DNA of 54,431 nt, counting the filler, from Diploschistes diacapsis (lineage: Eukaryota): NCBI GenBank assembly GCA_023645945.1. It is 5 parts of 5 records of this genome, joined end to end, with 100 filler letters (N's around TTAATTAATTAA, not from the genome) between each part and the next. Parts side by side here need not be neighbours in the genome. Positions count along the whole stretch, not along the records: positions 21,846 to 32,646 come from JALAIB010000888.1; 4 more parts are not named here. The stretch is one strand, 5' to 3'. Of this stretch, positions 7,499-49,159 are shown piece after piece; positions within the stretch are counted from its first letter, which is position 1; each line of letters starts with the position of its first letter. The notes beneath the pieces are model-generated. The model did no database searches. It was not told the origin of the DNA and saw only the letters and a program-made list of their open reading frames with translations. The position numbers and the translations under genes were made by a program.

Positions 7499-9848
7499 AT
7501 GTTAATGTCTGTATCTGCGCTGCAGATGGCCAGCGACTGGCAACCTCACAGACTCGGATCTCGCTCTACAGGTTTAGGGAATGGTTCAGGACAAAGCGGG
7601 CTGGGCTTGGGGTTTGGACGGATACAAACCTCGACTCTGGAGCGCCCACAGATGAAGAATCACGAAAGTTTTCCAAATTCGCTCTCTTCGAGTTATGCTA
7701 CCCTAGATAACCTGGGTCCAGCCGGCCAGACATCACCTCCTGCTGGGCAGGAAGATCTTCGGACTCCGCTACCTGCTGGCGAAAGCATACCTGAGACACC
7801 GAAACAGATCAAGGTGGAAATGATCCATGGCGGCTCCGCTCCAGCAAGTCCATTTGCCCAAATATCTCCAATGCCCGCGGAAGCGGAGGCAGACGAACGT
7901 CAAGAAGAGGAAGACGACTTCATTGGGTCACTTGATGATGATGATGAAGAGTTGTCAGAGAAACCCGAGAACAGCCAGACCGAGAAGACCGCTGAGCAGC
8001 GTCGAGCGGAGAAGAGAAAGATGAAACGCTTTCGGTCGGTACACCTCCTATGCGGTCGCTTACTAGTCGCTGATCTGTATCGTAGTCTCGCCCATAATCA
8101 GGCCCGCTTTCTCATGAGTGAATTCGCCCGTCAGGCGCACCCCGACGCTGCGCAACGAGAGCGGCTCGCCAAAGAAATTCCGGGTTTAAGCCCAAGACAA
8201 GTCCAAGTGTGGTTTCAAAATAGGTCTGCAGGATATGTCGCATTTCCTCCCCTACTACACTGACAATCAGAAGGCGCGCGAAGCTCAAGCGGCTTACAAT
8301 GGATGACAGAGAGCGGATGATGAAGTCCCGAGCGCTGCCAGAAGACTTCGACATGACACAAGCGCTGCACCCTCCCTTTACTGGAGGTGTGCCTCAACCA
8401 TACTCCCAAGGATTCACACCAGCTCTTCAGCCTCCGGCCTACTTTTCTCCTGCATGCAACGAGCACGCGTTGCTAAGACCTCCGCTCATGATGGCCGGCC
8501 TCCGCCGTGGGTCAGAAAATGACGGTACTATTTCGCCGATCAGTGTGCCGTCGAACCTCAATACGTTTTATACACCACCTGGATCTATTGCGACGACCGG
8601 GAGCCTTTCTCCAACCTTGTCTGTTTCAGGGCATCCGCATTTGATGGGCGATTGGCAGCAAAACCCCAGCGGCCGGGGTGTGGATCTTTATCCTCGTTCC
8701 GCCAGCATTTTGACTGGCTTCAACCCGCACATGCCTCGTCTACATTCAGGTCATGATCGCCTGACACGAGCCAGAGCTGAATCGTTAAGCTCTCCGCTTA
8801 GGATAAGTATGTCGTACAGCAGCGACGCCGATTTTGCCCCCCCAAGTATGGAAGAGACCGTACCGGCTTCGGATCATAACGGGCTTCAGCCGTTGAGGAG
8901 CTTTCCCATCGTAGCACCGTCAATGTCAAAACCTACGGAATTCTCCTGTGAGTCTCTTTTCGTACCATCCGTTTCTCCCTTCTGAGGTGGCAGAAGCATG
9001 CCGCTCAGCGCTTGTCAAGATCTTTGAGAAATAGGGTAGAAGACTGTTATTCTTTCTTCATTTAGCCCAGCAATGTACTGAATGCCTTTGAAGATCTCCC
9101 CTATAGTTTCCAGTCATCACTGCTTGCACGGCCTCGACCCAATCTACCGCCAGGTCTTGATCTCCGACCAAATTATCATCGTTCGCTCTTTCCTTTTTCT
9201 AAACTCGCCCAGCAAACGGATTTACAATCCCCAAACTCGCATCCACAAGGCGCAACACCTGCACGCATTCAGGCTCACACCCTATCTAATACCCAAGCGT
9301 CGACCCCGCAGCAGCACGATCAACCTCCTCAATCACCCTATCGCTCTCTGGCTTACGCTTCCACCCCTTTGGTTCCTCCGCATGATTTTCGTCTGCCACG
9401 TTCTCAGAATCATTGTGGCATTCAGTATCCGACCATGGAGAATGACGCCCAAGGGTATAGGGTTGGCGTGGACTCTGCTCCAAGCACAGCCACCGTCGCG
9501 GAACGCTCGCTCGAGCCGGTGAGCTATCACAAACCGGAGCCTGAAACGCGACGTATAACCCCTTTACAACCTCGGGATCAGCATCAAGATCATGAACCCC
9601 AGCAAGTTTCGCCGCAATACCAACAGCTCGTACCAGTCCAATCGCACCAACTGCTTCACCCTTCACAGTCACAACAGTATCCTTCTGCCCCAGTTCCATC
9701 GCGGAATGCAGGCACGAAGGGAAGACGAGATAATGAAGACTACGAAGACTTTGAAGGACATGACCGTTATGGGTCTGAGATGGCTGGTTTTTCAAGAACG
9801 GGGAGTTTCACAGCGCCGACAGGATACAACAGCGGCCAGAACCGCTGA
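7499..9848 (+). CDS. Homeodomain transcription factor (fungal, possibly Hox7/Pth12-like), 4 exons
   Basis: Spliced homeodomain KRKMKRFR|LAHNQARFLMSEFARQAHPDAAQRERLAKEIPGLSPRQVQVWFQNR|RAKLKRL. Introns: 8035-8085 (GTCGGT..GCTGAT..TAG), 8224-8270/8273, and 8948-~9093 (GTGAGT..CTGAA..AAG). The last exon is open through PPGLDLR and PLVPPHDFRLP to the stop at 9848. The start ATG and the subfamily are inferred. Confidence 0.9.
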
Positions 9849-10826: not shown

Positions 10827-10926
10827 NNNNNNNNNNNNNNNNNNNNNNNNNNNNNNNNNNNNNNNNNNNNTTAATTAATTAANNNNNNNNNNNNNNNNNN
10901 NNNNNNNNNNNNNNNNNNNNNNNNNN
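10827..10926. other. Artificial contig spacer N44-TTAATTAATTAA-N44
   Basis: Exactly 100 nt; the linker has stops in all six frames; identical at four places. Confidence 0.99.
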
Positions 10927-12108
10927 GGTTGGTAGGGTCGAGGGGAGTGCCTGGTTTGGGGGGACAGGACGTGGATGTTAGCATGCGATTTTCCTTTTCC
11001 TCTGTTGCTAGCTCTCTGTAGGCAGTTGTGGTTGCAAGGATGTTACGGGTGAGAAAGTCATAGCGTCGGAGAGCCCGCAAACGGATAGGTAGGAAAAGCT
11101 GTGACTCACTGCTCGCAAAACAAGCCTGCAGCACGTTCAACGCCCGCCTCATATCCCCCCTGCTCAGCTTGACCAGTGCCGCCGTCGCCTCCTCCTCGAT
11201 CAGCACGCCCTCCCTTTCGATGACCAGATCCACTAGCCGCCGGATATCTGGCTCCTTCAGCGGGCTGAACCTGAACCGCGTGCACCGCGACAACACGGCC
11301 TGCGACAGCTTGTGCGTGTAGTTTGCTATGATGCAGAACCGAGTGTTTGCCGTGTAGCGCTCCATGATGCGCCGCAGCGCCATCTGTGCGGTCGAGGTCA
11401 TGGCGTCGGCTTCGTCGAGGATGATGAGCTTGAAGGAGGCGAGGGAGCTCGCGGAGGGGGTCGAGCTGGAGAAGGGGGCGGTGGAGAATATTTGTTTGGT
11501 GCCTGCGTGCGTTAGGGTGGCGTTATTATCCGCTTCCGTCGGGCTATCGAGGGAGAGAGAAAGGAAGGGCTTGGAAGCAGGAGGAAGGACTGACTGGCAA
11601 ATGTCTTTATCTGCTCTCGTACAACGTCAATGCCGCGGTCATCACTGGCATTCAGTTCGAGCACCATCTGGCGCATGTTCTTTGGGCCGTAGATTTTTCG
11701 TGCCAGAGCTAGAATCGTAGAGGTCTTCCCGGTACCTGGAGGGCCGTAGAGAAGGAGATGAGGCAACCGCTGTCCCGTATTCGTCAGTCCTATTACCTCC
11801 CGGAGCACCAGACTGAGCCTTACATTTTTCTCCACAAACTTGTTGATGGTATTGATAATGTCTTTGTGACCGGATACATCGTCGAGGGTCTCGGGGCGGT
11901 ATTTCTCTACCCTGAGTCTAGTCAGCACAAAATTTTTGGTGTCGAGATCGACAAGGACTTACCAGGGCAGACTATCCTCTGCTTCTACCGGCAGGTTCGC
12001 AGCGCTCCGCTTGCCCTTCGCATTAGTATTGGCGGAGCTGAAGGTCACTTCGTCGGTGGCTGCGGCGCCGGGGCCATCAATGTCCATTTCGTCTTCGAAG
12101 TCGGACAT
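10927..12108 (-). CDS. RFC3: Replication factor C small subunit (yeast Rfc3 / human RFC5 type), 3' end truncated by contig edge
   Basis: [11 protein letters not shown]...LPW|VEKYRP, Walker [24 protein letters not shown], Walker B IILDEAD, SRC motif, [11 protein letters not shown]. Introns at ~11912-11962, ~11770-11823 and ~11500-11590. Confidence 0.95.
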
Positions 12109-12880
12109 GGTTGTGGAGTTTGGCAGGCAACTGAGATCACAAGTTGGGAACAGCAACGTTCAATAATGGCTAATTTTGAAGCTGCTGTCAAAAATAGCTA
12201 GCTTCAATCTATTCCTGGAGCTACATTCAACTTGCGCAGAGTGGGTGACGTGAAGCGCGTCTTTTTGGCGTGTTCCCAGGGCGGACACGCCAAGACATTT
12301 GGAGCCTGAGGGCTTTGCTGGAAGAGGTAAATCGATTTCTCAATCATCAGTTCTTCTATCTAACTAAAACGACACCATTTTCTCTCGCTTGAGGAAGCAC
12401 TAAGACCTTTCACACTGAAAGACTATTATGATAAACTTTGAGTACTCTACGGAGTTCCAAAGATGAATCCTCTGGTGGGCATTACTACTTCGTCTCATTC
12501 TGAAGTGTCCATGTTTTCGTGTAGAATGGCGTACCCCTTAACGAGGACAAGCAGGACACAATAGTCGCTACAAGCGACGCTGAAGCGCTGCAGAGATGCT
12601 CGCCCCTGGTTCTTTCGGTTGCTGGGTGGTTCGTCTCATTTACAGGTAGTGCTCTTAGGTTTGAACAATATCCGACTCGGTTTTCAATGTTCAAGTACAG
12701 AGCGCATGCTTTCTTTTGCACCGTGATCATGAGAGTTTCCCTTGCTCCTTCTTCTACCTTGTCCTTTTTCTCAATTTACCGTGAAGTTTCATCAGGAACC
12801 GCTTTGGTTACACCAATCCTCAACCAACAAGACTGGCAGTACAAGTTGCTAGGAGCCCCAAATTCCAGAACCCTGCAATC

Positions 12881-13780
12881 ATGTCTGGCGCTCAGGCACC
12901 TGCTTCTTTCGATGCCTTTGACACAGGAACATGGAGTAGCCTTCAGCTCCGGCAGAAGATCCTCGAAAAGCACCACATCGCGAACCTGCCCTTGGTGCTT
13001 TACTGGGTAAGGCAGGAGTTGATCCACATCGAAAGGAAAGCTATCGATAGGCAAGATAATGATCCAGATAGCCGATTTTCGATCCTGAAGATTGACTTGA
13101 CCCTTCACCGCCATGCCTTCAACAAGGACTATCTGGCGGCCGTGGACCATTATGTTGGCGAGTACAGCATCTATCGTTTCGAACAGAGACTTGCTCCGCC
13201 GCCCATGGGAGTCACACTAGCAATGTACAGACGAGCTCTGCTGTTTGATAATTTGACGGAGGAAATGGACATAAGCGAGATTAGTCGGGGTAAAGAGAAA
13301 GACAGTGCAGTTCGGTTATCACAATATACAACTAATCATTACACAGTTTACAAACACGATATACCGAAACTGTTCGTCGTCGAGGGCATGCTCTTCCAGA
13401 AATTTATAGACCACTTCCGTAGCGCTAACCGCCTCACTGCTTCGCAAGCTGACGCAGCAACGACAGAGAACTCACAAACTGCTCGATGCGGTAGATACAA
13501 CGCCTTGACTCCCAATGGGCAACTGGAGCAATTGATCTCTTGCTTCAAGTTTGTCACTTTCTATGAAAGGTTGGGGAAGCGCGGAAATTCTGCTAGAATT
13601 GCTATGCGGGTCGCAGACGAGATGATCGAGGCGGTAGTCGCGTTGAAGCTCGCTGGCTGGAGCTTGGCACCTGATGTAGTCCTTGATCAGATCAGAGAAG
13701 ACGGCGAGGACGATGAGGTCGCAGTGGAGAGCATCGAGGATGATCAGATGGAGGCCCTGCGAGGGGAACTCGAGGATTGA
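12881..13780 (+). CDS. Hypothetical protein, 299 aa, intronless, acidic C-terminus
   Basis: Long ATG-initiated ORF with protein-like composition, divergent from RFC3. No family recognised. Confidence 0.65.
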   Translation: MSGAQAPASFDAFDTGTWSSLQLRQKILEKHHIANLPLVLYWVRQELIHIERKAIDRQDNDPDSRFSILKIDLTLHRHAFNKDYLAAVDHYVGEYSIYRFEQRLAPPPMGVTLAMYRRALLFDNLTEEMDISEISRGKEKDSAVRLSQYTTNHYTVYKHDIPKLFVVEGMLFQKFIDHFRSANRLTASQADAATTENSQTARCGRYNALTPNGQLEQLISCFKFVTFYERLGKRGNSARIAMRVADEMIEAVVALKLAGWSLAPDVVLDQIREDGEDDEVAVESIEDDQMEALRGELED

Positions 13781-18598: not shown

Positions 18599-20540
18599 AT
18601 GAACAACAATTACCACCAGGAGATGTTCTACGATCAAACCGGATCTCGATCTCCGGGATCTCAACGACTTCAGCCACAGACCGTACATCGTCAGAGTTCA
18701 CGTCAGTTCGATGTGTACGGCCAAATGCCGAATCCCATATTCAACCCCGATGACCAGCCTCAGCGGTTCGAGACGAACAGATTCGACAGGATGAACGCCG
18801 GCATATCGGCAGGAGGGTTCAGTAACTATGACATGGGTGGGGCGCAGACTTGGAACCCGAATGCTTTTGGGGGCTCACCAGCCTTTGGACCTTTTGGCGC
18901 GAGCCGTACGATGAAGCCTACGAATCGCGGTGGTCGCAGCAACCTACCCCCGGTGAGTCACTGCTTTCTGGATCTGTAAGACGGCACGCTAACCCATCTA
19001 CCTGCAGGCTTGGCTCGAACAGCAAGCTCCGCCCATGCCCAATCTGAGCCAGCTCGGAGGCATCGGTCAATCGGTCATGGGCAGCCAAGCTCTGCGTAAC
19101 GACAGCTACCAGCAAGATCCGGACGAGGAGCTCATCCCAACGGCCATTGTCATCAAAAATATACCCTTTGCCGTCAAGAAGGAACAACTGGTCGAGCTTA
19201 TGACGAGCATGAACCTCCCTCTGCCATATGCTTTCAACTATCATTTTGACAACGGTGTGTTCCGGGGACTTGCTTTTGCAAATTTCACGTCCCCCGAGGA
19301 GACAGCAGCCGTGATCGAGCGCCTCAATCACTTTGAACTGCACGGTAGGAAGCTAAGGGTCGAATACAAAAAGATGTTGCCCATTCAAGAACGCGAGAGA
19401 ATCGAGCGAGAGAAGAGAGAGCGAAGGGGCCAGCTGGAAGAACAACATCGGCCCATAGCGGCTCCGACATTGCAGTCTCAGCATTCGATGTCTTCGCTAT
19501 CGTCGCACGTGCCAGCCACCTCTCCTTCGCCCGTGTCGGCTCGAGCTCCAATAAGTATGTCAAGTCCTTGTGTCCATCCGGGTACAGCTGACAGTCTGCC
19601 AGATGTTGATCTGAATGACCCCGAAAATCTCGGATTCTATACCGAGATTCTCTTGTTCAAGAAAGACACAAATCGCGAGACTCTCATCTTCCCGTCCACC
19701 CTGACCCCTACCCAGAGGCGAACAATCCATACGCTCGCTCACTTGATGCAGCTGGGTCACGTCTCCCAAGGAAATGGCGACCAGCGAGCGGTCCACGTTC
19801 TAAAGACAGGCGCAGCTGCTAATGTAAGCCCCCCGCTGTCACAGGGACCCACTATGCACGGCGACAATCGAAACCGCGTGCTCAATAGGTCGGCAACGAC
19901 CGACTTCGGCGAGGCTCGAGGATCTGATCCGACATCCTACGGCCCATTGCGGGGTCATCAGTCAAGTGGCTTCCTGGGCGTGCCCGACTCGCCTGGCGGG
20001 TTCAACAACCAAGCGAACCTTCGAGCGGCCAAGTCTTTCGCCGACCTGCGGTCCTATACTCCCTCGCCTGCACAGTCTTCCGCGAGCTTTCCGGTAGGCC
20101 TTCAATCGAACATCGCCAGGTTCCAGGATGCCGGTCCAGGAAACGCGACTAATGCTACGCCTGCCCTAACGCCCACTGCATCTGGGACCTTGGGCCAGCA
20201 TTCGAGCGAAAGCTTGCTAGTCAATGGATTAGGCAACATGACCATTGGCACCAGTATCGGTACGGGGGGCAGTCCACGCCGTCTCAGACCCGTGTTCTCT
20301 TGGGACGACAACCAGAACGCCTCGACGGTCCCGATCGGAAGCAACCGCAATCTCAGCATGAACACCTACGAAGACTCTACGAACCGTGAAAGAAACCAGA
20401 TCAATCCGCTGAGACAACCACGTGGCCCTGCCGCCGAGGGCAGACAAAACTTTGCAAGGAGTCGTCAGAATGGGCATCAGACACATGGAAGCGGTGAGCT
20501 GAAGCAGAAGAACTCCAACGTGGAGATGATTGTTGAGTGA
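18599..20540 (+). CDS. PIN4: RNA-binding protein with RRM and R3H domains (Pin4/Cip1-Cip2 family)
   Basis: ELIPTAIVIKNIPFAVKKEQL...PYAFNYHFDNGVFRGLAFANF...GRKLRVEYKKMLP (RRM) and LTPTQRRTIHTLAH (R3H). Introns 18953-19007 and 19555-19602. Confidence 0.92.
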
Positions 20541-22660: not shown

Positions 22661-25032
22661 TTAGTACGAGTCGACGTCCATAAGCTCTTCCGACAGTTCC
22701 GACGAATCGTCGCTGCTGCTGCTGCTGCTGCTGGCGTCATCCTTGTCGGTGATGGTCTCCTCGTCGAGCTCAGTGTCGGCCGCCTTGCGCTTTGTTCCCG
22801 CCGTGACTGCACCTCGACCGGCTGCACCCTCGTTGGTCGCGCCGCCTTCGTCCGCTCTCGCTCCGCTGGCACGTGTAGCTTCTTTAGCAGCCCTGGGCAT
22901 CGCCTTGATTAGCTTTTCGGCGTATGCTTCTACTTTCCTCGTTGCTCTTGCGGCTCGTTTTGCAGCCGCCGTAGCTTCCACGGCCATCTCTCCAGCAGCC
23001 ACTTTCTGCGCCTCCACGGCATCGATCCTGGCATGTCTCTTCTTCTTTGCCTCCACCCACAGTGTCATTTCGGCCCACTCATTTTCTGCCAGTTCGGCTG
23101 CCTCCTCGGCCGCTTCTTCAATATCAAGCTGCTTATCTATGTAATGCATGTCCCCCAGCACCACGCCACCGTCCGGAAGCTCCAAGTATGACCCCTTTTC
23201 CGCCTCCCGAGCAAACTCCTTGTCCTTCTTGTAGTGCTCCAGCATGTCTTTGGTCTTTTCCAGAACCACCTCCTCCGGCGTCTCGATGCACAACGTGATC
23301 GACTTGCCTTCGCTCAACAACTTGAGTTTCTCCCACTGCGACAGTGGCGGAGTCCTCTCCCTCGCAAGTTTCCTAAATTCGGCTTCCTTCAGCCCCATCT
23401 TGGTCCGCACCACCCACTGCCATGCCATTTCTTCCTCTTCGTCATCCAACATGACCAGAATCTGCCGCAAGCTCCCGTGGCCTGCCATCGCGATCAGCGG
23501 CCCTTCGCGGAACAGCGAAACGTGGGTCAGGTTCCCGATGTAGGATATGGAGAACCTGAGACTTGCCAGCCTGTCGCACACCGCCCTGCGCAAGACGTCG
23601 CTCCCGGTTCCGATCCCGCCCGTGAAGACGAGGGCGTCCACGCAGCCGTCCAGCAGCACGCACCCGCGGCTCGCGTACACGACAATCTCCTCGACGAACT
23701 TTTCGAAGGCAATCTCCGCGTTGGGCGGCGGGCTGGGGCCCACTTGGGGCGCGACGTTGACGTTTTCGCGCGGGGTGAACTCGTGGTAGAAAGAGGAGTT
23801 GGGGTCGAGGCGGTTGCCTTCGCGCCAGCTGTCCTCGACCGTGTCGTGCTCGGGATCTTGGGGGAGAGCGTATTCCGTTTCCATGAGCCCGGGCTCGTTG
23901 GGAAAGGTGTACTGGTCCGGGCCCCATACTGTTGGGTGGTAGAAGCGCGCGCGATGGCACTCGGAAATTATGGAGAAGTTGGGGACGGAGCAGATGGAGG
24001 GCCAGCCCTGTGAGAAGCATTTGGCTTGGGTTGCGGCCTACGGGGACGTTAGTATGTTGGTACGACAGAAGACGGGGCAGAGGTGAAGATGGAGACGCCA
24101 GATGAAGTTGCCAGATCAAAGGGTTGGTGGTGGTAGCGGTGGTGGTGGAGGGAACCTACCCGGCTGAGGCTAAGGGAAAGCTGTCCGACTCCATCGGCGG
24201 CGTTGGTGTCGTCGCAGCTCTCTGTCCTCGGCCAATCATATCTCGGCGTCATCTCCGTCGAAACATCGATACAAACTCCTTTCCTGATGGCGCACCCGGA
24301 GCACGTGTCGCCCAGATGGAACGCCAGGATGTTCAGTTCGTCCTCATCGTTGGTGTGAACCACCGCCACCTGTCGCAGAACAGACCCGTAGTTGATGCCG
24401 TGCACCACGGCCGACGGCCTGTCGACGTTGGCTCGTCTAAGGGCCGGAATGCTCAGATGGAACGACGTGTCGAAGAACAAGATGTTTTTGGCACGTGGCA
24501 ACGCGTTGACGCACGCCTTCACAATCTCCAGCGCGGGCCTGTTCTCCGCCGACAATTTGCCGAGCTCGTCGTAAATGTGCTCAGTCTCCTGCGAGAGGAT
24601 GACAGGACCCGTCCTGTCCCCGCCGCGGATGATCCTGTGGCAGATGTAACCAATGTTTTGGTCGGAGTGTTGGTCTGTAATCTTGGCCTCCTCGCGTATC
24701 TGGACCAACATGGTGTTGAAGATGGCACGGTGGCTTTCCATATCCTGACCGCTGAGCTCGAACACCTTCACTTCGTCGCGGCTTTTACACTCCCAGCGGC
24801 TGTAGCGCGTGAGGAGGTCTTGGGTGTTGAAACTGGCGAGGGTTCTGGGGTGGAGGCCTGGCTCGCAGAGGAAGAGTTTGATCTTGAGTGACGTCCTCGC
24901 CGCGTTGACAGAGACGATGAGTCTTTGATGCTCTTGGGCGAGCATACCAGAAGGACTGAAATCGGGGAGGCGAGGAGGCTCGCATTTGGGTTTCCTCCAC
25001 CGACTGAGCTTTTGCCAAGAGGCAGCAGACAT
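22661..25032 (-). CDS. Divergent acetate kinase-fold (ASKHA) protein, ~749 aa, 2 exons, with internal insertion and long charged C-terminal extension
   Basis: Motifs in acetate kinase order: VSVNAARTSLKIKLF, ICHRIIRGGD, FFDTSFH, HGINY, AFHLGDTCSGCAI, QGWPSICSVPNFSII, DALVFTGGIG, ILVMLDDEEEEMA. A phase-0 intron 24159-24038 (GTAGGT..TACTAAC..TAG) joins ORFs 24049-25032 and 22661-23884 in frame (291+458 codons). Confidence 0.88.
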
Positions 25033-26451
25033 GCCGGCTGCTGTGTCCTGGAGAGAGTATAAGTGGAAGACAAGTTAAGTGCAGGTGGTAGAGAAGTTAT
25101 TGACCTTATCGGAGGAGCTAGAAGGCTTAACTTGTTTGCCGTGCTGGCCACGATTGTTTGGATGCATCGTCAGGACCTGGGACTTGTTAATATAGTGAGG
25201 AAAAGTGTACACACGTCTAACCTTTCTGACGCTTGGCCCCTGTCGTCCGAGAAGATATGGAAGCTGAACCTTGTTTCGCTTACAATCGCTTGTTCTCGCC
25301 GTCTATGCCCTCAATGTCACTATGATTAAGAAGAACAGACTTGTTCCGTCATCGACCGTGATGTGCCAGTGACGTTAATGCAAGAAAGAGAGAAAGAAAG
25401 ATACAAAGAGAAGGAGGATGAGGGAACTTGTGTCGTCTTCTACCTGTTCTCAAAGATGCGGTGTGGTCGGTTGGAAGGATTATCGTACCGTCAACTGTTG
25501 ACACGCCGCCGCCGAGGTTTGTGAAAGAAAGAAGCGAAGAGAAAGAAGAAAATCGGCCTTGCTTATATAGTGAGGGGAAAACGATGCGATGAGGGAAGCA
25601 AATTAGCCGTGTAGTGAACGGGGAAAGCGAACACGAGTCCGACCTTCGCGGCGCGCTGCACCCGTGGTCAGGAAGAGTCAGGGATGAACCGTTTCGCCAG
25701 CGACCATCCTTGCCGGCTTGCGCCTGTGGTCATGAAAAGGCCCGGGACGAACTGGCTCGCCAGCGACGACCACCTGCGCGGTTTCGCCCGCGGTTGAGAA
25801 GATGTCTGAGGACAACCATGTTCTATCATCGGCTCCTGATAGACGTGCGGCCGCCACAGGTACATGCAAGAGGACGACTTGCGGTCCTGATATGTGCGTG
25901 CTGCAAGCTACTTTTTGAGCCCAGTTAGATAAAGCCTTGATGTCGTGCTGCAGCCGCGGTTGCTACGAGGGTCTCGTAATGGGACTGCTTTTCTGGATGA
26001 ATGACCTTATATGTTGTTGGGGGATGTTTTACACATTTAGTACACTCTTTGTTGCTTTCCAGTCCACCTAGTTTTTTGCCCTGCTATGTATGCAGTCATC
26101 CGATCAGCAGCTGCTTTTACCAGGTACTGAGAAAGGTGGCCACACGTGGATAGGGTAAGTTGGAGTTCGGAGTACGATAATGCCACCAGCTAATGCTGAA
26201 AACAGTTGGACGGATAAAAGAACAGATATCACTCTTTTTCGAGATCTCAAAGATTCACCATGAATCGATTATCTGGGTGAAGTCATCGAAACGCATTACA
26301 AGACTCTCGACACTCTAAAAAGCGCGTTAGAAGAAGAGTAAGTCAATTGATAACTTAACGAATACAGAGGCTATGAAGCCGGGTATCTTACGGTGCCAGG
26401 AAATAACTAATTGAAAACCAGAAAAACCAGAACGCCTAGCTTTTCATTACC

Positions 26452-28387
26452 TCATTGCAGCGTTTCGCCTTGTATTAGAGGCGCGGGAACTGGACGCTTG
26501 AATGGGTGTGCTTCGGTATTGCTAGAAGCAGAGTCAGCTAGCCACCCCAAGGAATGATTTGAGGAGGAGACGTGGCAGCACTTACAGCACGAACTTGTCC
26601 AAGCTCACGAGATCGGGCCCCGAGAACAGCAGGTAAAAATACTTCAGCGTCTCCGCCAGCCAGAAGCTCTCCATGCGATCCTCCTTCTGTGGCTTGAAGG
26701 GCGGCCTGACCGTTACGTCGTGGATGGCCGAGTTGCCGAAGCTTGTGGCCGTATTTCGGTCTATCGCCTCAAACATGCGCCATCCAGCTTCCAGCAATTC
26801 CTTGTTACCGGTGAGACGATACAAAACGAATATGCTCTCAATAGCTTCTGGTCTCAGGATATACTTCGTGTTGTCAATGGCGGTGTACCCCGGCTCAAGG
26901 CCCCTTTCCTTGATTAGTAGGTTTATCTTCTCCTCGGGCACCAACTCTTGAACATCCTTGTCGGTAATGCGCTGACGTTGCAATATGCCCTCATACCATT
27001 TGTCCCGGTCGTAATTGCAACTTTGAGCGTCCTCGCAGGGTACCACATGGAAGACTTCTGGCATGATACCCGTCGGCATGCTCTCGTATGCCCAGATGCA
27101 TCCGTTCACCAGCCTCTGAGCAATTGGTATATCTTCAGACTCGGTACCGAACACCTTAGCAGCCAAGGCAACCATTCCACCTGCGAAGCAGCCAAGATGC
27201 TGCCCTTCTGGCGCGCGCGTGAGCTTGTTTCGACGCGTATCCCACATAGCAACACCTGGGAGGAGCACATCGGCTGCGGCAACTGGACTTGACGGCCGAT
27301 CCACCGTGTCTGCGAATGGATCCGTGGACATGGCCTCCCGGCGACTGTGTTCAGCTTCTAAGGGATTGGGAACCATCGGTCGGAAGAAGATGACGGACTT
27401 CATGGCTAGCAAAGCGCGCTCGTACATTGGTTTATAGAAGCTGATAGTGCCACCAAGCAGCATGTACTCCTTGGGCAGATACTCGTACACTGAGTCGGCC
27501 ATGCCGCCTATAGTGAAATGAGTACCCGTAAAGGTGAGCGCCTTTGCATTTACTACAGTCGGCCACAGTCCTGGGACTTTGGTATTGCGCTGTGATCGCT
27601 CGAAGGCTTGCATAATGGTATATACCGCATCGTAATACTTACTATCGCTAGTCAGCTGGCTCAAGCGGGTGAACTCGAGAGTCAAAGAGCCGAGCTCTGC
27701 TACCAAGGCTGTGTCTGAGGCTTCCTGAAATTCACCGGAAAGAGCAGCACCCCAGTTCCAACGAGTAACGGGCATGCGGTTAGGGGTATCGAAAGCTTTG
27801 TAGAGGAGCTCACCAACCTCAACGGCCTTGATGAGAAGAACAGGGTATGCGCCATCAGAGATATCGTATGCTCCTAGGTAACCACCTAAATATCTGATGG
27901 TAGTCTCGAAGACGTTGATGGTCTCTGAATCGGAATGGCTGAAATCGATCGTTGCAGAGGCATTCACGGCAACTTCAAACTCCTCCTTCATGCCCATTAT
28001 CCAAAGGGTGTCCAACGAATCCACCAATGTTGCTCCCCACCCCCCAAATGTTGTGGCATAGCTGCCTGCAATGGGTTGAAGCTCATCTTTGAGCCATGCA
28101 TATTGCTTGTACCCTGACCATGCCCGCTCAAGAACCTCTTTCACCTGCGCTCGTCGCAGCTCTCTGATATCCCTGTCCGAGTCCGTTTCAACGCCGAATT
28201 TGAATTGAATATCTATGAAGTCCCTCGGCTGCGTTGTCGGGAGCTTATTGACATACCGGGGGCCAAAGCGCAGACCGGCAGGCCTAAGATATGTCGACTC
28301 GTTGAGCCGGCGGAGCAGCCATGCTAAGGTCAACAAGGACAGTAGGAATATCGCTGTGATATACCATCGCCTAGGAAGTCGAGTCAT
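26452..28387 (-). CDS. Class I alpha-1,2-mannosidase (GH47), type II membrane protein
   Basis: N-terminal TM segment; GWGATLVDSLDTL, VFETTIRYLGG, ADSVYEYLPK, HLGCFAGGM, LRPEAIES, MESFWLAETLKYFYLLF. Terminal intron 26585-26522 gives the conserved L|NTEAHPF ending, stop at 26452. Confidence 0.96.
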
Positions 28388-28637
28388 GGTGTGGAATGTC
28401 AGAGTAGAGAGGTAGGCGACACCACCACGTTGTTGTTGATATCACAAGCCATTGTGAACTACGTCTTGCGATTCCATATGCGGCAAGAACAATCAACGTT
28501 CCGACTCCACCACCTTGGCCAGCCAGCTGGTTTTGGCGGCTAGCTCAGCGCATTAGCAAGACTTCAATCTCTTGGTAAACAAGTTGAACACAAGCTGTCT
28601 ATTAAGTACTAGGAATCTCGCCTATACGCTCTTCAGG

Positions 28638-29998
28638 ATGAAGCCATTCGACAGTGCAGTATGACGTCGGTAGTTTTAAGCCGAGGTTCTGCAGGTAATC
28701 AAGCGGTTCTTCCAAGATGGACTATAAGTTCGCCCTTTACATCAGTAGTAGATGCTTCTCGTGCCTGTGAGCAGGTGTCTCGCACATGGCTGCAGTGTAC
28801 AATAGCCTGTTGGTTTGTGGCCCGTTTAGTGTACTGCAGCAATTGGGCTTATACTTGCCAGGATGCCTTCGACCTCTACCATCAGTGGAACGAGAGAAAA
28901 CGGACTTTATCTGCCGAGTACGGCACGCCCGATCTTCCTGCATTGGGTCATGCTTTTGCGGGCTCAATTGGGGCTTCAGTCTCCAACATTGTCACCTATC
29001 CTCTGGCTGTGATCATTACTCGGCTACAGGTTCAACGTCAGCTGCGGAGGAGCTCTACTGTTCAAGAAGCAGATGAATACAGATCTGTTCAGGACGCCGT
29101 ACTAAAGATCTATCGACAGGAGGGCTTAAAAGGCTTCTGCACTGGTCTTGTTGAAGATACATTGAAGAGCGCGGCTGATTCGTTTCTGTTCTTTCTGGTA
29201 TACAACTCCTTGCGGCAAGCGAGACTCAAGTCCAGACAAAGAAAGCAGCATCTGCCTGTCCTTGACGAGCTCAGTGTTGGCTTTCTAGCTGGGGCACTGG
29301 CAAGATTTTGCACCATGCCTATTTCGACCATCGTGACGCGCATGCAGACAACTTTAATGGTTGCAAGTCGATCTACGGGCACTAAAGCCGAGACCATATC
29401 ACTTCGTTCAATAGCAAAGCAGATACAAGCTGAGAAAGGCGTTAAAGGATTCTGGTCAGGCTATTCAGCGACACTTGTCTTGACCTTGAACCCCTCTTTG
29501 ACATTCTTCTTCTTCGAAAACCTGAAGCGAATCACGTTACCTCATAGCAAGCGCTCGGAACCTGGGCCAGCAATAACATTCTTCATTGCGGCACTGAGCA
29601 AGGTCTTGGCTTCTTCTATCACGTATCCATTCTCTCTTGCCAAGGCCCGTACCCAAGCGTCGACGAACTCTGCCAAGTCCAACAAGAATAGCAAGGGCGC
29701 AGATGCCGAGAAATCAAGAATCGCGCAGACGATGTTCGATTCTGCTGCTATGAGTAATCACAAAACGCTAGACCGAACCGTGCTCGGCACGATATTGCAC
29801 ATTGCTCGCACAGAAGGCGTAGCTTCGCTTTACGAAGGCTTAGAAGGGGAAATTCTGAAGGGCTTCTTCAGCCATGGAATCACCATGCTGATGAAAGATG
29901 CCGTTCACGGATTGATAATTCGACTCTACTTTACCATCCTGAGACTCCTTAATCGATACCCTGGGCCGGACAAGCTTGCGCAACTGGCTAAAGATTGA
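28638..29998 (+). CDS. ANT1: Mitochondrial carrier family protein, probable peroxisomal adenine nucleotide transporter (Ant1-like)
   Basis: Three carrier repeats with Px(D/E)xx(K/R)xR-like motifs (YPLAVIITRLQ, MPISTIVTRMQ, YPFSLAKARTQ); ALGHAFAG; GFWSGYSATLVLTLNPS. Probable short first exon at 28638-28658 and intron 28659-28861; the start is inferred. Confidence 0.82.
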
Positions 29999-34367: not shown

Positions 34368-36332
34368 TCATCGGAACCCAACCCTCTTCCCATCTCTCTG
34401 CCTCTCAGTTGGTGTCGACGACCACACCCCCGCCGGCGGCGCCTCGTCCATGTCCGCTAGTAAGCGGCCCAGCCCTTCGATGTCCAGCATCCCTTGATCG
34501 AGCATCATCTGGTCCTCGTCCTCTCCGTTTGAGCGATCTCTTGGCCGGATAAGCGCGTCCACCATGGGGACCAGGGGCGCGCCGCTCCGCAACCTTTCGT
34601 TTTCGACAAGCGGAGTTGTGGAAATCGTTAGGCTCCGTTCCGCAGATACAAGGATGTCGAAGTTCTTGGCAGTTGTAGCGGAGGCAGGATCGTCGGATGG
34701 GAATGCGCACACAGAGGTTCGTAGCTCGGCGCTATGTGAGATGGTGGGGACCTCTCGGATCTGCCCGCTTGCACCGCTTGTGAAGAGAGTACTAAGTCCC
34801 TTGAACTTGCTTTGCCAGTGTGTTCGGAGGCTAGGAATCATGGCGATGCTGTCGCCATGCCAGATTGTGAGCCATTCGTCGCCTTCGGCGCTGAGTACGG
34901 ACCCGCTGGTGAGTCGGACAGAGATGCCACCGCGGTTGCTGAACGATTCGACGTTGCTGAAGAGTGCCTCTTGGCGGAGCTTGCGCGTGCTGGGGGTCAT
35001 AGGTGCGAGTTGAGATCGAGACTCGGGTCTCGTGGTGGAGGTCTTTATGTTGGTAGCGCTTTTGATAGGGTTACCTATTCTACCACTTAAGGTGAAGGGT
35101 GTGGGTTTAGCACCGGATATTGTTCGGTTACTGGAGCCAAGGGCCATGTCCCAGATGCCCCATTCTCCTTCGGCGGTAAGAACGGCGACTGCCTTTCCGT
35201 TCATTACCCAACGGGCGTCAAGGACAGAAGCTAAGTTGCTTGAGCGGAATGAGGAAGTGGGAGGTTGTAGAGTAAAGGTCCAGCGTCCCTGGTCAGAAAA
35301 ATAAGGTGAATTGCACTCGAAGATCCGTACCGGCCCTCTAGATTCGGCAATGAGGAGGCGAGGAGTCTGCGAGGTAGATGAAGAAGGTGATACATAGAAG
35401 TCAATGCTAGATGCGGGTGATGCAAGTGGGCGCGACCGCCAAAGGATAGATCGAGCGGGGCTTGTATCCAGTGTCATGCCATCTTCTGATACTGGTATGC
35501 GATGAACTAGAAGCATACCCAGAAGGTCAGCGGAGTGAGAGGCTAGAAGCACATCGCATCCAGCTTTCTCATTCTCGTCACTCATGTCGTCCTCACTGTC
35601 TTCCCCCTCATTTCTGGTGACAGAGTAAGGGGCAAAGGCAACCGCGACCCCTCTTGGTAGAGTCTGATGAGCGCCTGGAAGTGTAACCAGTTCCTCTCCC
35701 CAGGTGCCATGCCCAGCTGTGCATAGGGAAGGAACGTCAAATAGCCGCTTGCTAGATACCAAGGCTGGTGAAGGGGGTATGAGTGGGAGCGTGAGCAGAC
35801 GTACGCTGCCATCGGCACAAGCCAAAGCCACGACAAGTTTGTGAGTCAGTAGTGCAGGCTCCAGGGGGTGCGACTCGGGCTTCACCAGTTGAGGGAGGCG
35901 CGGAAAAGCCAGATGCAGAACAGCGGTTCCCAGTGGCAAGTCTAGATGTTGTATTATATCGGCATACGGCCTTGACAAGTCGTGTTCTTCCTCCTCATCT
36001 TCAAATTCCGCCAGAGCGCTTTCCGCAGCGTCCGGGTTCTCACTGCCATCAAGACTGATCACTCCTGACGAAGATTCATTCCTCCTAAGCTGGCTGTTGG
36101 GCTGTCGCTTCCGCTTGAACGGTCGACCACCCCTCCATAATATCAAGAGCCCTTGCTCATGGCCGCAGAGAATGATTTTCGAGCCATTGGGCGCGGAAAG
36201 TGGGTATACGTTTGCAGTGTGAACATGGTAGGGCAATTCGTATCTAACTGGTTGTTAGTTTCATGGAGAGCTTCAACTGTTGGAGTACCTTAGATGCAGC
36301 AGGCTGTCTGCCCGTTTTATTCTAGGCTTCAT
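34368..36332 (-). CDS. NUP37: Probable nucleoporin Nup37 (filamentous-fungal beta-propeller type)
   Basis: N-terminus YELPYHVHTANVYPLSAPNGSKIILCGHEQGLLILWRGGRPF resembles fungal Nup37 as I recall it. WD-like blocks (LACADGSVRLL; GEWGIWD). Short first exon 36332-36289 and 45-nt intron 36288-36244. Confidence 0.75.
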
Positions 36333-36790: not shown

Positions 36791-39700
36791 TCACCATTCA
36801 CCAGATCCACGCCCAGCTTTGTGCATATCCAGCGGGCACCCGCCCTTGCCTAATGTACAATTGAGCTCCTCTGCGTACCTGACCTTGGGTCCAGCGCCTC
36901 GATCCAGCACGTTCCTTGCTTCGCCGAGTGGTGGGAGTCGAGGCAAATCGGCGTCGTCGTCACCACCTATATTGCGATTCTCATGCTCGTGCTCATCTTT
37001 ATCAGTCTTGTTCTCCACTTTTGTTTTCGCCTTAGGCTTGTTAGGCCTGGAAAAGGAGGTAGTGTCGTAACGCAGAAGGCAAGAAAGGTGAAAGGCGTGG
37101 AAGCAAGGGAAAGACAGTACAGCTTCCGGTTCGTGATCCAAGCCGTCATTATTCCTGGGCGCTGACAGATAGGAATCTTCGTCCACAAAAACCTCTCCGC
37201 AGCCACAGCAATGACCGTGCTTGATTTTGTCGGGGCCAATACGTCTCCGCGCTTTCCTATCTTCAACTGATAAGCTTGGTCTTCTTGTTGCGTGATCAAT
37301 CGAGACAATGTCAAAACGTATGCCACTCTTCTGCCCGGCTCGAAGTTTTGACATTCTTGTTGCGACCTCGCCGTGGAACACGCGTGCAGCGCCTTCGCTA
37401 ATACTATCTTGCAGCTCGAACTCTCTGATCATGCGAGTGAGAGAGTCCCGGAGACCCATGATCTCCAAACCCTCGGGTATCTTTCGCACCAGCTTAATGG
37501 GATCAATCGCCGTACCGATCTCTTCCAGTAGTGCTCGTATAAAGGCTGGCTTGTTCATGGAGTAATTGAGAAGATCATCCCAGAGGTCTAGATCATTCTG
37601 TTCTTTGGCGAAGGAAATGGCCTGAGAGACATCGTTCAGCTTTTCGATGATAATGAAGAGCGCCTTCTTTGTACGACCCTCTTTTGACAAGAGGTAGACG
37701 AACTCTGGAACGTAGTTACGCTTCTCGCAGATCGAAGATGCGAGCGACAAGGTATAGGACTGGGAAGCCTTGAGAAATTCGAACAGCAACGGCCGGTCGT
37801 ATTCGGCAAAGGAAGGCAATGCCGTATCCGCAAAGTCATTCACCAAAGACTTTCCCTCGTTAGCCAGACGATGGGTTGTGGCATCCCGAACTGTCCTCTT
37901 AGCCGCGGTATCGGGATCGTCCGCAGTGTCACCATTCCACAATGCACGAAAATAAAAGAATAGAAAGGGTTGCATGTCCTTTCGTAGGCTCAGTTGCTTG
38001 ACGACCATTGCTGGAGCCACGATTCCATGATGCGCTTCCAGTACAAGAAGCCGAATAGGCTCAGCAGAGAGCTCTTCAAGATCGCTCAAAGAGCCCTCTT
38101 TCTGCTGCTGTTTCGAAATCCGTAACAGCAGAAGCCCCGGTATATCATCGGCAACAACGTCAATTAGATGGTGTGTACGTATGAGTGCTAAAGCCGTATC
38201 TGCGTCTTGTAGCTTAATGTAACATTTCAAAGCGTCGCGGATCTGACCATTAGCAACGTAGAGCTTGGCTAGACATTCCATAAGGATCCGCCAGTCCCTA
38301 CCTTTGATACCATCTTCAGTACTCTCTTCTGTAACTTCTCCTGTCCGCAATTTGCTCTGGATGGCAGTAATCACACTTTCAATGTTAAAGAGTTCTGGAG
38401 ACCACCGATGTAAAAGCTCCACCAATCTCGGGCGATCTTGAGAAATATAGTAAGCCAGTATGAGTTCGTAAACTGTCGAAGACAAGGGGGGTCTCATGGG
38501 CTGAGTCGGGATATAAGGGGCGATTTCCGAATGTTTTTTGCTTTCGGCGAAAACCCATACCCAGTGCTCCCAGCTCGAAGCTGTTCCAAGGACCTTGCCA
38601 CAGACTTGCCCGGCAGTGGTCCAGTTATCCGCATCGACAAGCTGCTTGACCCACTTATCGCCGATTCGACGCTTCTCTTTCTCCGACTGAGAAAAGAAAT
38701 CTTTCGTTTTCTTGGTCGCAGAGGATGTGTCATCAAAGAAGTCGAACAGCGTATTAGACTGGGCCCTTGTTGGCGTGCTAGGGGTACTCGCTGTAGGTGT
38801 TCGCTCAGGGACTTCCGAAGCTCCACCTGCTGCATCTGGGTGGGCGTCTAGGTCGTTCCAAGCTTCTTCATATTTCTCGTGCTCCAAAAGCCATTTAAGA
38901 TGGTCAGACCGTGTCGGCTTGGTCGCAAGGACACAATCATATGGGCTATGGATAAAGATCTTCATACTCCGAGTAAGTAGAGCAGAATCAGGTGGCAGGG
39001 AAGGCTTGACTGGTATAAGGCCAGACGTTGACTCTTTGCCGAGAGTTCCTGATTTTCCGCCTGAACTATGGCCACTGCGCATACTAGCCCCTGATGTAAA
39101 AAGCTGAGCTGAGTAAAGGGTTGCATCCACCGCAGCCGATCCAAGAAATTTGCTTGAATACATGGAAGCATCCCATATGCTGCCTCCAATATTACCAAGC
39201 ACCTCCAAAGTACCTCTCTGCGTTGTTGTCTTTGTCGAAGCGCGCATGACGGGCAGGACTCCAAGATGATAGTCTGCAGCGGTAAGGCTCTCGAAACGAC
39301 TCACTTTCAAAGTGTCTGCCGACACTTCATTTGGAGGTTTAGTTGAGATATCTATAATCCTCATTTCTGGCTGTAAAGCATTTTGCCGTCGAGTGATACC
39401 CCTTTTAGGAGTACCTTCTGCTTTCTCTGAATGCCGACTGTGAATCTCTTGGGGTGTAACATATGCAAGGATAATAAGTAAATTTGGGGTATAAAGCGAA
39501 ACTCCGGACACAATGCAATCAGTTCGTAAACTGCGTAAGTTAGTCGAGAATGTCAAAAGCTTCCCTCAGAAGCTTACATCGTAACAACTTCAACCCTCCC
39601 AATTCTTCTATCTTTTCCAGTACCGCGGACACCATCTGAAATGTCGAGAACCCAAATAGAGCCTCCCCAGCCCACAACAAGCCTCTCTTTCTTCAACTCG

Positions 39701-40916
39701 ACACGCGTTACGTTCGTCGAGATGTTTGACCGTACAGACTGGTCGTCAGGTTCCACACCGTTCTTGGTCACACTGGGTATAGACTGGTCTTCATCTTCTA
39801 ATTCTAAGCCTTCCTCGTCAATCCACTCGGCGCGAGCCATCCAGACACTAGCCATCTCGTTCCATAAATCTCCACCAGGCCGATCAATATGGCTCACGCG
39901 CTTCCAGGCCCAGTCCAAATCTTCCGAACCCAGGTGAAGATGTGTGCGCATAATCTTGATGCCATACTCGTTCACCCAGACCACAAACTTCCCACTCAAT
40001 GACCACTTGATAATGCTGATGCTGCCTTCGCCTGAGTGAAGAACAGTGTCCGTGCCATTATTTGCGCCAAGGCCAAGTGCTCCCAGCCATCCGCTGCTTA
40101 GCGGGGTGCCTGATGTAGTGGTCGATGTTGCACTTTTACCAGCCTGGCCTCCAATTGTAAGGACAAGGTTACCCGCTTTTCCTCCCGATAGATATGTCCT
40201 GTCGCTTCTGTAGCTAGGCGAGACCGCAACTGCTTGGACCGGTCGACCGAATTTGCGGAGAACCACATCTTCTGGATGAACAAGCGAGGAGACGCAGACG
40301 TTGCCATCAATTGATGATGTTCCAATATAGATGTTATTCGAAGGCACATTCGGCACGGGGGCTTGCTTCTGGCCTTTTCCAACCGGAGAAGCAGTGTTTC
40401 TCAATGGCGACTCATTGCTTTCAGCAGTCGTCTTCTGGTCTGGGCGGACAGGAAGAGGTGGCGGGAACGGAGAGACGGAGATCGCGGAGACGGAGGCGAT
40501 ATGGGCGTGATAGACGCGAAGCGAATTGAACGATGGAAGTGAGAAGACATGCTTGAACCACTCTGAGCTGGAATTGCTCTTGTAACACGGGTTTATATCG
40601 ACGTACCACATTGCCATTATGTGTGCCTATTGCCTTGAAATACGTCAATGCGGCTATGCTGACAGTGAGGTTGTCTGAAACTCACCATCTTATCACCTGC
40701 CACCAGAAACGCACTAACAGCGTCGCCATTGCGATACAATGGCCCTTGGCCTTTCGTAAGCGCGGCATATTTCAGTCGTGGTTCGCCTTCCTCCTCATCG
40801 TCATCCTCCTCGCTTTCAGTACTGCTTCTCGACTCCTCGCTGCTGTCATGGGGCATATGCCTCTGCTTTTGAGGTGTTTCCGGTTCATCCTTGTGTCCCT
40901 GGGAGTCCGGCGCCAT
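36791..40916 (-). CDS. VPS41: Vacuolar protein sorting protein 41 (HOPS subunit), 4 exons
   Basis: EPRLKYAALTK...GDAVSAFLVAGDKM|AIGTHNGNV|HVFSLP; WD propeller; clathrin-repeat region (AISFAKEQNDLDLWDDLLNYSMNKPAFI); C-terminal RING-like CCGC..CFHAFHLSC..CP. Introns 40685-40634, 40606-40552 and 39577-39531. Confidence 0.96.
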
Positions 40917-48459: not shown

Positions 48460-49159
48460 GCGTTGCTGCTGTTCGAACTAACGATCTACGCTGATTGGGC
48501 TGTTTGGCGTTGCTGGGTTTTCCTAGCCAAGTAGCAGAGTTTGACTTGAAGCGATAGGACAATGCCCACAATGATATACCTAGTTAGTATGCAGGAGATC
48601 AATTTACCGTGACGAATACTGTACCGACGGTGCCAGTAAAATCAAAGACTCCAATTACTACAATATAGCATATAGTGATGTTGTATCGTGAGCCTTCACC
48701 AGCCAGCCGGAGTCAACTCCGTAGCACGTGAATCGCGTTTGTGGGCGTTGAACCCCCCCACCTTTTCTTCTTTTCGATTGTTTGACTACTGTCCAGCGTC
48801 GTCGAATCTGCATATCCCCTCGATTCAAAAATTCATGGCAGGTATGACTTCGCATATGGGGCTCCGTTCTTCCTCTGAAACGCTTGGAACATCTGGGCGT
48901 CATAGATGCCATGCTAACATTTAATATGCACGGTGAATAGAAGCTGTTACTGTAGGCGGCAAGCGCAGGACGACGTGATGTCATTAACAACGAACAAAAC
49001 AAAACTGAAGCGTTCCTGCCTCTTGTGGATCTCATCATTCGAATTTTACTGCATGTCATTTTCGTCATGTTTGTCCGAAGATACTTCCGTTTTGCTTCTG
49101 CCTCCAGGCATTGCAACCACAACTCCCGCGCAGTCATCGGCAGAGCAGCGTTGAGGACA

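What the first reader, a model, noticed from the sequence alone, without database searches (positions are those of the whole stretch)
22661..25032. Intact but catalytically remodelled acetate kinase homologue: candidate pseudoenzyme or metabolite sensor
Seen: a 749-codon uninterrupted reading frame with one consensus intron, carrying acetate kinase motifs in order. Compared by eye with Methanosarcina thermophila AckA numbering, residues for ATP, Mg and phosphoryl transfer are retained: N7, K14, R91, D148, H180, H208, the GGIG loop and E384. Others are replaced: NAGSSS->NAARTS, HRVVHGG->HRIIRGG, LAPLHN->KLSAEN (H123 lost), RKYGFHG->SAVVHG (F179 lost), HLGNG->HLGDT, TSMG->VSTE (M228 lost), TRSGD->TESCD (transition-state R241 lost), GIGE->GIGT. 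Established: R241 is needed for catalysis, F179 and M228 line the acetate pocket, and fungal ack genes usually encode ~400-430 aa and are often linked to phosphoketolase (none on this contig). Inference: this much divergence without stops or frameshifts suggests selection for a new role (non-catalytic nucleotide or acetyl-phosphate binding, or a new substrate) rather than decay.
Basis: partly seen in the sequence, partly recalled or inferred. Interest (0 to 1): 0.75.

Follow-up and report, generated by a model that had tools for sequence, protein, structure and literature searches.

The report
Remodelled fungal acetate kinase relative
An intact fungal gene descended from acetate kinase has kept the residues that handle magnesium and ATP but rebuilt the pocket that holds acetate, and a few unstudied environmental relatives show similar changes, so it probably does a different job that nobody has yet tested.

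Summary
The gene is real: two exons, one consensus intron, 749 codons without a stop, and an acetate kinase (ACK) fold. It is the only ACK found in its genome, where the usual partner phosphoketolase was not found. It keeps about half of the family's conserved columns, yet all four metal-binding residues, R91, H180 and the adenosine loop; the acetate pocket, S10, H123 and G212 are changed. New here: five unnamed metagenome proteins (30-75% alike among themselves) have lost V93, H123, F179, G212, M228 and R241 together and fixed new residues. This gene groups with them in two trees (98/88, 98/97), but AU tests do not reject other placements, and it lacks their signature residues. Best reading (0.40): a Mg-ATP phosphotransferase whose acceptor is no longer acetate. 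Rivals: non-catalytic nucleotide binder 0.25, late decay 0.20, weak ACK 0.15. No expression or activity data. New variant of a known kind.

The parts
24160..25032 (-). Exon 1, 291 codons (P0001): 36-residue N-terminal extension, then ACK positions 2-230 of PF00871
   Evidence: fold search best match C. neoformans ACK 4h0p, E 1.8e-14
24038..24159 (-). 122-nt phase-0 intron, GTAGGT donor, TACTAAC branch site, TAG acceptor
   Evidence: the spliced junction segment scores 26.3 against the canonical helix segment, 0 of 500 shuffles reach it, best of 63 other windows 17.8; no RNA data
22661..24037 (-). Exon 2, 458 codons plus stop (P0002): rest of the ACK fold, insertion and tail
24883..24906 (-). 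PHOSPHATE1 motif, residues 43-50: N7, S12, K14 kept; G9A, S10R, S11T
24619..24639 (-). R91 motif, residues 132-138: R91 kept; V93I, H94R
24397..24471 (-). D148 (D188) and H180-G181 (H211-G212) kept; about nine residues over RKYG deleted, F179V
24304..24318 (-). PHOSPHATE2 motif, residues 239-243: H208, L209, G210 kept; position 211 Asp, G212T
24211..24234 (-). LOOP3 / R241 region, residues 267-274: R241 is S272 without a gap or R269 with a three-residue deletion
   Evidence: pLDDT below 50 here
23732..23965 (-). Insertion-bearing segment, about residues 316-393, rich in Pro and acidic residues, no family above cut-off
23606..23623 (-). ADENOSINE motif, residues 430-435: G331, I332, G333 kept; E334T
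23438..23440 (-). E491 = E384, metal ligand
22664..23395 (-). 244-residue tail: charged segment, a predicted continuous helix of about 95 residues (about 589-683, Ala/Glu/Lys-rich), a KRK basic patch at 707-709, acidic Ser-rich end
   Evidence: no Pfam hit at E up to 1
25380..25569 (-). Possible promoter: TATATAA at 25569-25563 followed by pyrimidine-rich tracts
   Evidence: read from the sequence; not tested statistically

Best explanation
A descendant of the ascomycete acetate kinase gene that still folds as a two-lobed ASKHA protein, binds Mg-ATP between PHOSPHATE1, PHOSPHATE2 and ADENOSINE, and transfers or hydrolyses the terminal phosphate, but no longer works on acetate or acetyl phosphate in the phosphoketolase pathway. 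Shown: fold, gene integrity, which residues are kept and lost, absence of a second ACK and of phosphoketolase hits. Inferred: N7, K14, D148 and E384 hold Mg and nucleotide; R91 and H180 hold the transferring phosphate; the rebuilt V93/L122/F179/M228 pocket takes another acceptor; loss of phosphoketolase released the gene; the helical tail places or oligomerises the protein. The acceptor is unknown.
For: All four metal residues listed for Salmonella AckA (= N7, K14, D148, E384) are kept, against 1 of 5 acetate residues of that list (P232; R241 ambiguous). Four of the five catalytic residues are kept although only 27 of 62 or 43 of 90 conserved columns are. G331-I332, which govern nucleotide choice, are intact. 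Five relatives keep N7, D148, H180, H208 in 5 of 5 and R91 in 4 of 5, lose V93, H123, F179, G212, M228, R241 in 5 of 5, and fix P at 93 and Y at 240 in 5 of 5. 14 of the 17 columns lost by at least four of them are lost here too. No XFP, XFP_N or XFP_C match in G000 while transketolase, EF-Tu/EF1 and acetyl-CoA synthetase families are found.
Against: No activity or expression data. This gene lacks the relatives' fixed P93 and Y240 and has lost 21 further conserved columns that they keep, among them loop glycines, so it may be a degraded member. S10R and G212T lie in the phosphate loops and could block ATP. R241A cuts kcat to 0.2-0.4% in tested ACKs, so if R241 is lost any chemistry needs another solution. 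AU tests do not reject placing it beside canonical ACKs (p 0.21, 0.08, 0.25), and its score on the relatives' profile (148.7 bits) lies within the range on size-matched canonical profiles (131-152). The relatives' second exons were not seen. G000 is in 4361 contigs, so absence of phosphoketolase is not proven.
Confidence: 0.4

Rival explanations
1. Pseudoenzyme: it binds Mg-nucleotide (or an acyl phosphate) without turnover and uses lobe closure plus the long helical tail to signal or scaffold, in the way yeast Rtg2p uses an ASKHA domain in retrograde signalling.
For: R241 is lost in 5 of 5 relatives and, in the ungapped register, here; H123 and G212 are lost in all; the partner enzyme was not found; a 244-residue tail with a long helix and a basic patch was gained; Rtg2p is a fungal precedent for a signalling ASKHA protein (abstract only).
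Against: R91, D148 and H180 are kept here and nearly always in the relatives, more than plain nucleotide binding obviously needs; no partner, localisation or binding data; tails of the relatives unseen.
Confidence: 0.25
2. A gene in late decay: constrained for most of its history, then freed, and now drifting with its frame still open by chance.
For: Longest branch of the 25-row tree (2.12 changes per column); loses the relatives' fixed residues and 21 columns they keep; several indels in the core; no relative above 45% identity among 150 listed hits, none above 36% among the ten best; in simulation the 713-codon frame stays open in 50% of runs after 2% and 19% after 5% neutral change.
Against: After 30% neutral change 0 of 400 runs (713 codons) and 1 of 400 (469 codons) stay open; splice signals are perfect; GC at fourfold sites is 0.83 in the ACK domain against 0.46-0.76 in the other long ORFs sampled, with GC2 at 0.43; catalytic residues are kept out of proportion.
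Confidence: 0.2
3. Still a short-chain acyl kinase (acetate, propionate or similar), slower or rewired: R269 takes the place of R241 after a three-residue loop deletion, possibly helped by new arginines at positions 10 and 94.
For: The gapped register gives P, R and D identities and scores 5.5-11.2 bits better than the ungapped one on the canonical profile before gap cost; MAFFT chose it; then all five catalytic residues would be present; it is the only ACK found in the genome; P0089, its neighbour in one tree, has an Arg at the R241 column.
Against: The P232-R241 spacing is unchanged in 110 of 110 homologues measured, and the relatives' profile prefers the ungapped register by 2.5-2.8 bits before any gap cost; the deletion would remove position 239, where single changes cut activity 15- to 190-fold; pocket, H123, S10 and G212 are changed as well; no acetyl-phosphate source was found.
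Confidence: 0.15

Closest known systems
Fungal acetate kinase (Cryptococcus neoformans ACK, PDB 4h0p; ascomycete 'probable acetate kinases' such as P0006, P0010, P0013)
   Same: PF00871 fold and motif order; best sequence (E 7.6e-18) and structure match; nests among ascomycete-type ACKs; metal ligands, R91, H180, G331-I332 kept.
   Different: About 30-36% identity; 749 aa against about 400-440; V93, L122/H123, F179, S10, G212, M228, E334 changed; R241 lost or displaced; insertion and tail; no phosphoketolase found in the genome, whereas fungal ACK partners with it.
Unnamed divergent ACK-like group from ENA metagenome assemblies (P0004, P0005, P0037, P0164, P0165; P0089 more loosely)
   Same: Parallel loss of V93, H123, F179, G212, M228 and (ungapped) R241; N-terminal extension; 15 shared derived residues against 0-9 for 36 canonical controls; one side of a branch in two trees; their reading frames end shortly after the point where this gene's intron begins.
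   Different: Only 29-33% identity; this gene lacks their fixed P93 and Y240 and keeps 27 of 62 conserved columns against 36-44; AU tests do not exclude an independent origin; no member is characterised.
Entamoeba histolytica PPi-dependent ACK (PDB 4h0o)
   Same: A eukaryotic ACK with changed substrate use and an altered PHOSPHATE2 loop.
   Different: There the adenosine pocket is closed by Gln-Met in ADENOSINE; here G331-I332 are kept and the changes fall on the acyl side.
Butyrate kinase (TIGR02707) and propionate kinase TdcD
   Same: ACK-family members with a changed acyl pocket.
   Different: Butyrate kinase models score about 22 bits against 74.6 for ackA on exon 1, all far below cut-offs.
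Yeast Rtg2p
   Same: Fungal ASKHA protein used in signalling, with a putative ATP-binding domain (abstract).
   Different: Modelled on an exopolyphosphatase, not on ACK (section heading); an analogy only, no sequence link tested.

Membership tests
Acetokinase family (PF00871, ASKHA fold) | Profile match above the curated cut-off | tested here: met
   74.6 and 30.3 bits against cut-off 22
Acetokinase family (PF00871, ASKHA fold) | ACK-type fold | tested here: met
   Model of exon 1 only (mean pLDDT 61.5); the ten best Foldseek matches are acetate kinases, TM about 0.47; whole spliced protein not modelled
Functional acetate kinase (EC 2.7.2.1) | Metal ligands N7, K14, D148, E384 | tested here: met
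   N43, K50, D188, E491 (list)
Functional acetate kinase (EC 2.7.2.1) | R91 and H180 | tested here: met
   R133, H211
Functional acetate kinase (EC 2.7.2.1) | R241 | tested here: inconclusive
   S272 without a gap, R269 with a three-residue deletion; model unreliable there
Functional acetate kinase (EC 2.7.2.1) | Acetate pocket V93, L122, F179, P232 | tested here: not met
   Ile, deleted or Glu, Val, Pro kept (list)
Functional acetate kinase (EC 2.7.2.1) | Intact PHOSPHATE1 (N7, S10, S11, S12, K14) and PHOSPHATE2 (G210, 211, G212) | tested here: not met
   S10R, S11T, G9A; Asp at 211, G212T (list)
Functional acetate kinase (EC 2.7.2.1) | ADENOSINE G331-I332 | tested here: met
   G432, I433
Functional acetate kinase (EC 2.7.2.1) | Acetate/acetyl-phosphate turnover with ATP/ADP | not testable with these tools
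   needs an enzyme assay
Fungal phosphoketolase-ACK pathway | Phosphoketolase gene in the genome | tested here: not met
   0 candidates for PF03894, PF09364, PF09363 in G000; fragmented assembly, so not proof
Butyrate kinase | TIGR02707 / PRK03011 score above cut-off | tested here: not met
   21.8 and 22.1 bits against 289.1 and 222, exon 1 alone
Unnamed divergent ACK-like group (P0004, P0005, P0037, P0164, P0165) | One clade with these proteins | tested here: inconclusive
   98/88 and 98/97 support, but three alternatives not rejected and long branch
Unnamed divergent ACK-like group (P0004, P0005, P0037, P0164, P0165) | Fixed new residues P at 93 and Y at 240 | tested here: not met
   Ile and Glu here

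The most novel reading that the evidence does not exclude
This gene and the five metagenome proteins are a previously undescribed fungal branch of the acetate kinase family that has given up carboxylate phosphorylation altogether and uses the kept Mg-ATP machinery, with D148 as base, on a hydroxyl acceptor (a sugar, polyol or protein side chain) or as a nucleotide-driven switch with a long helical arm: an acetate kinase caught turning into another kind of ASKHA protein after losing its pathway partner.
Probability: 0.25. Interest if true: 0.8.

Novelty: new variant of a known kind. Interest (0 to 1): 0.6.

Why it matters
The catalytic residues of acetate kinase are described as highly conserved in prokaryotic and eukaryotic members, and in the 150 best homologues the R241 column held Arg in 131, a gap in 12 and another residue in 7. 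A group of fungal proteins that drops the acyl-site residues together while keeping the metal and nucleotide residues would be a natural experiment in how an ASKHA enzyme changes acceptor or becomes a regulator, and it can be tested with a few proteins in standard assays. It also warns that an 'acetate kinase' label on fungal genes does not prove a phosphoketolase pathway.

Tried and rejected
Search for full-length relatives over 510 aa with exon 1 and over 595 aa with the six-sequence alignment: none; weak evidence by the tool's own note. JGI metagenome scans: none with A2; two loci with A4, both canonical bacterial-type ACKs. RNA runs: no RNA holder listed, so no reads were laid. ESM Atlas: only acetokinase clusters for exon 1 (0.93) and exon 2 residues 100-400 (0.84 at best), no tail family. 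Earlier findings: five look-ups, nothing shown. Alignment A6 (exon 2 against full-length ACKs) was misregistered and not used. The tail model (pTM 0.31, single sequence) was not sent to a fold search because it is one long helix. Reading high GC3 as high expression was rejected: the EF1-like gene prefers C/T at fourfold sites, this gene C/G, which fits GC-biased substitution on a constrained frame. PPi use as in Entamoeba was considered unlikely because G331-I332 are kept. dN/dS could not be computed: no orthologous DNA. No complex prediction was run. Eight literature searches listed no paper on a divergent or inactive fungal ACK; I saw listings only for most hits, and subscription papers are not in the library.

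Full report
Gene structure. On the minus strand an ATG at 25032 opens 291 codons up to 24160, followed by a 122-nt intron with a GTAGGT donor, a TACTAAC branch site and a TAG acceptor, and a second exon from 24037 to the stop at 22661; the spliced product has 749 residues and no internal stop. The gene lies inside one contig, between N-gaps ending at 21845 and starting at 32647. Both exons match PF00871 above the cut-off. The splice is supported by homology: residues 285-316 across the junction score 26.3 against the matching segment of 19 of 20 canonical ACKs; 0 of 500 shuffles reach this, and the best of 63 other windows scores 17.8. The frames of several relatives stop resembling ACK near the same place, which I read as unspliced introns; their DNA was not seen. 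No RNA holder was listed.

Fold. The best solved relatives are acetate kinases, led by the Cryptococcus enzyme, by sequence and by a model of exon 1 (mean pLDDT 61.5, nine-sequence alignment; Foldseek E 1.8e-14). Residues 256-291 of the model are below pLDDT 50, so it says nothing on the R241 loop. Residues 394-502 align to the C-terminal part of ACK. Extra to the family are a 36-residue N-terminal piece, an insertion of about 65-75 residues and a 244-residue tail with no Pfam hit, predicted from the single sequence as one helix of about 95 residues followed by disorder.

Residues. With M. thermophila numbering read, this protein keeps N7, S12, K14, R91, N124, D148, H152, H180, H208, G210, P232, G331, I332 and E384, and changes G9A, S10R, S11T, V93I, H94R, L122/H123 (one residue shorter), F179V with about nine residues deleted before it, G212T, M228T, G229E and E334T. 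It keeps 27 of 62 columns that are at least 85% conserved in 36 fungal-type canonical sequences (these 36 were picked by motif from 161 fetched proteins and include near-duplicates), and 43 of 90 over the full length in 20 sequences with the other register. The split is uneven: 4 of 4 metal residues against 1 of 5 acetate residues of the list in PMC3475010 (one passage seen), and 4 of 5 catalytic residues named in PMC11717252 (passages seen).

R241 is not settled. PMC11717252 gives kcat 0.2% for R241A and PMC6461089 gives 3.9% activity and cites 0.4% kcat for the Methanosarcina enzyme (passages seen). Without a gap R241 falls on S272 (hhalign runs ungapped to residue 270). With a three-residue deletion R269 falls on R241 and D274 on the conserved Asp. 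On a 23-sequence canonical profile the gapped form scores 5.5-11.2 bits better before gap cost; on the five relatives' profile the ungapped form is 2.5-2.8 bits better; the spacing is unchanged in 110 of 110 homologues in which it could be measured. I put the chance that R269 fills the R241 role at about one in three.

Genome context. PF00871, exon 1 and a canonical ACK (P0166) find only this locus in G000. None of the three phosphoketolase families finds a candidate, while transketolase, EF-Tu/EF1 domain 3 and acetyl-CoA synthetase families are found. PMC4390882 (parts 1-3 of 4 read) states that fungal ACK partners with phosphoketolase; in PMC7038570 (passages) the two genes carry consecutive numbers. 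The assembly has 4361 contigs, so absence is likely, not proven. Neighbours are housekeeping genes with no link to acetate.

Relatives. Among 1.84 billion representatives the ten best hits are 31-36% identical: no close orthologue. Three of the 150 listed hits (P0004, P0005, P0037) and two found by an alignment search (P0164, P0165) are single-record ENA proteins of 300-339 residues that cover only the exon-1 part and are 30-75% identical to each other. All five keep N7, D148, H180 and H208, four keep R91; all five have lost V93, H123, F179, G212, M228 and R241, and all have Pro at 93 and Tyr at 240. P0089 is more distant and has Arg in the R241 column. This gene shares 15 derived residues with at least three of the five (one in a gappy N-terminal column), against 0-9 for each of 36 canonical controls, and 14 of the 17 columns that they lost are lost here. 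Trees on the exon-1 region put the seven divergent rows on one side of a branch at 98/88 (40 rows) and, without the two longest rows, five rows at 98/97 inside the ascomycete-type ACKs (25 rows). Against this: AU tests do not reject joining this gene to three different canonical groups (p 0.21, 0.08, 0.25); its score on the relatives' profile equals that on canonical profiles (148.7 against 131-152, whereas held-out canonical proteins gain about 148 bits on their own profiles); and it has Ile and Glu where they have Pro and Tyr. It is an early or degraded member, or a parallel case.

Selection. In the ACK domain GC is 0.57, 0.43 and 0.80 at the three codon positions and 0.83 at fourfold sites; flanks are 0.49-0.52 and the other long ORFs sampled 0.46-0.76 at fourfold sites. 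The C/G preference differs from the C/T preference of the EF1-like gene, so this shows a constrained frame, not high expression. In a substitution-only simulation the frame stayed open in 0 of 400 runs (713 codons) after 30% amino-acid change, but in 19% after 5% and 50% after 2%: most of the divergence was under constraint, a recent release is not excluded.

Mechanism. I favour a Mg-ATP phosphotransferase or ATPase with a new acceptor (0.40), because the residues kept are those for metal, nucleotide and the transferring phosphate, and those rebuilt are the acyl pocket named in PMC5517563 (part 1 of 5 read). That D148 corresponds to the catalytic base of ASKHA sugar kinases is recalled, from no call. 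Rivals: non-catalytic nucleotide binder (0.25; Rtg2p as an analogy, abstract and outline of PMC5417653 seen), late decay (0.20), weak acyl kinase with R269 as R241 (0.15). PMC4500148 was searched by passage and gave nothing used. No supplements were read; alignments in the supplements of the ACK papers could bear on residue conservation.

Verdict. Homologue of acetate kinase: shown. Functional acetate kinase: fails the pocket and phosphate-loop tests, R241 inconclusive. Eight literature searches listed no description of such fungal proteins. New variant of a known kind; interest 0.6.

Noticed in passing
P0004, P0005, P0037, P0164, P0165 (ENA, no window coordinates): A coherent group of ACK-like proteins lacking H123, F179, G212, M228 and R241 with fixed Pro93 and Tyr240; a cleaner test case than the window's gene. 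Second exons and hosts unseen.
   Followed up: partly
P0089: Another highly remodelled ACK-like protein (26 of 62 conserved columns kept) that has Arg in the R241 column and pairs with the window's gene in one tree, possibly by long-branch attraction.
   Followed up: partly
window 7448-8260 (+): Homeodomain protein (PF00046, E 1.2e-13), probably continuing into the ORFs up to 9845.
   Followed up: no
window 10874-11626 (-), 18993-20537 (+): AAA+ protein with RFC-like lid (weak hits), and an R3H plus RRM protein.
   Followed up: no
window 26585-28441 (-), 28613-29995 (+), 36794-40626 (-), 41504-42547 (+): GH47 mannosidase, mitochondrial carrier, Vps41 and RMND1/DUF155: ordinary housekeeping neighbours.
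   Followed up: no
window 34371-36254 (-), 47165-48478 (+), 12785-13777 (+): Long ORFs (628, 438 and 331 aa) without a Pfam hit at E 0.01; the 438-aa one is Thr/Gly/Ser-rich (GC2 0.68), like a cell-wall protein.
   Followed up: no
window 51701-52264 (-): Weak fungal rhodopsin-domain hit (PF20684, E 0.0025, below cut-off).
   Followed up: no
L007 (G000:C1037) and L008-L010 (G000:C145): Two transketolase-family genes in the genome, one in a long single frame and one with introns.
   Followed up: no
L004 580-2228, L005 4942-6657: Bacterial-type ACK genes in two JGI metagenome contigs, each preceded by a 190-aa ORF that looks like a PduL-type phosphotransacylase (recalled resemblance, not searched).
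   Followed up: no
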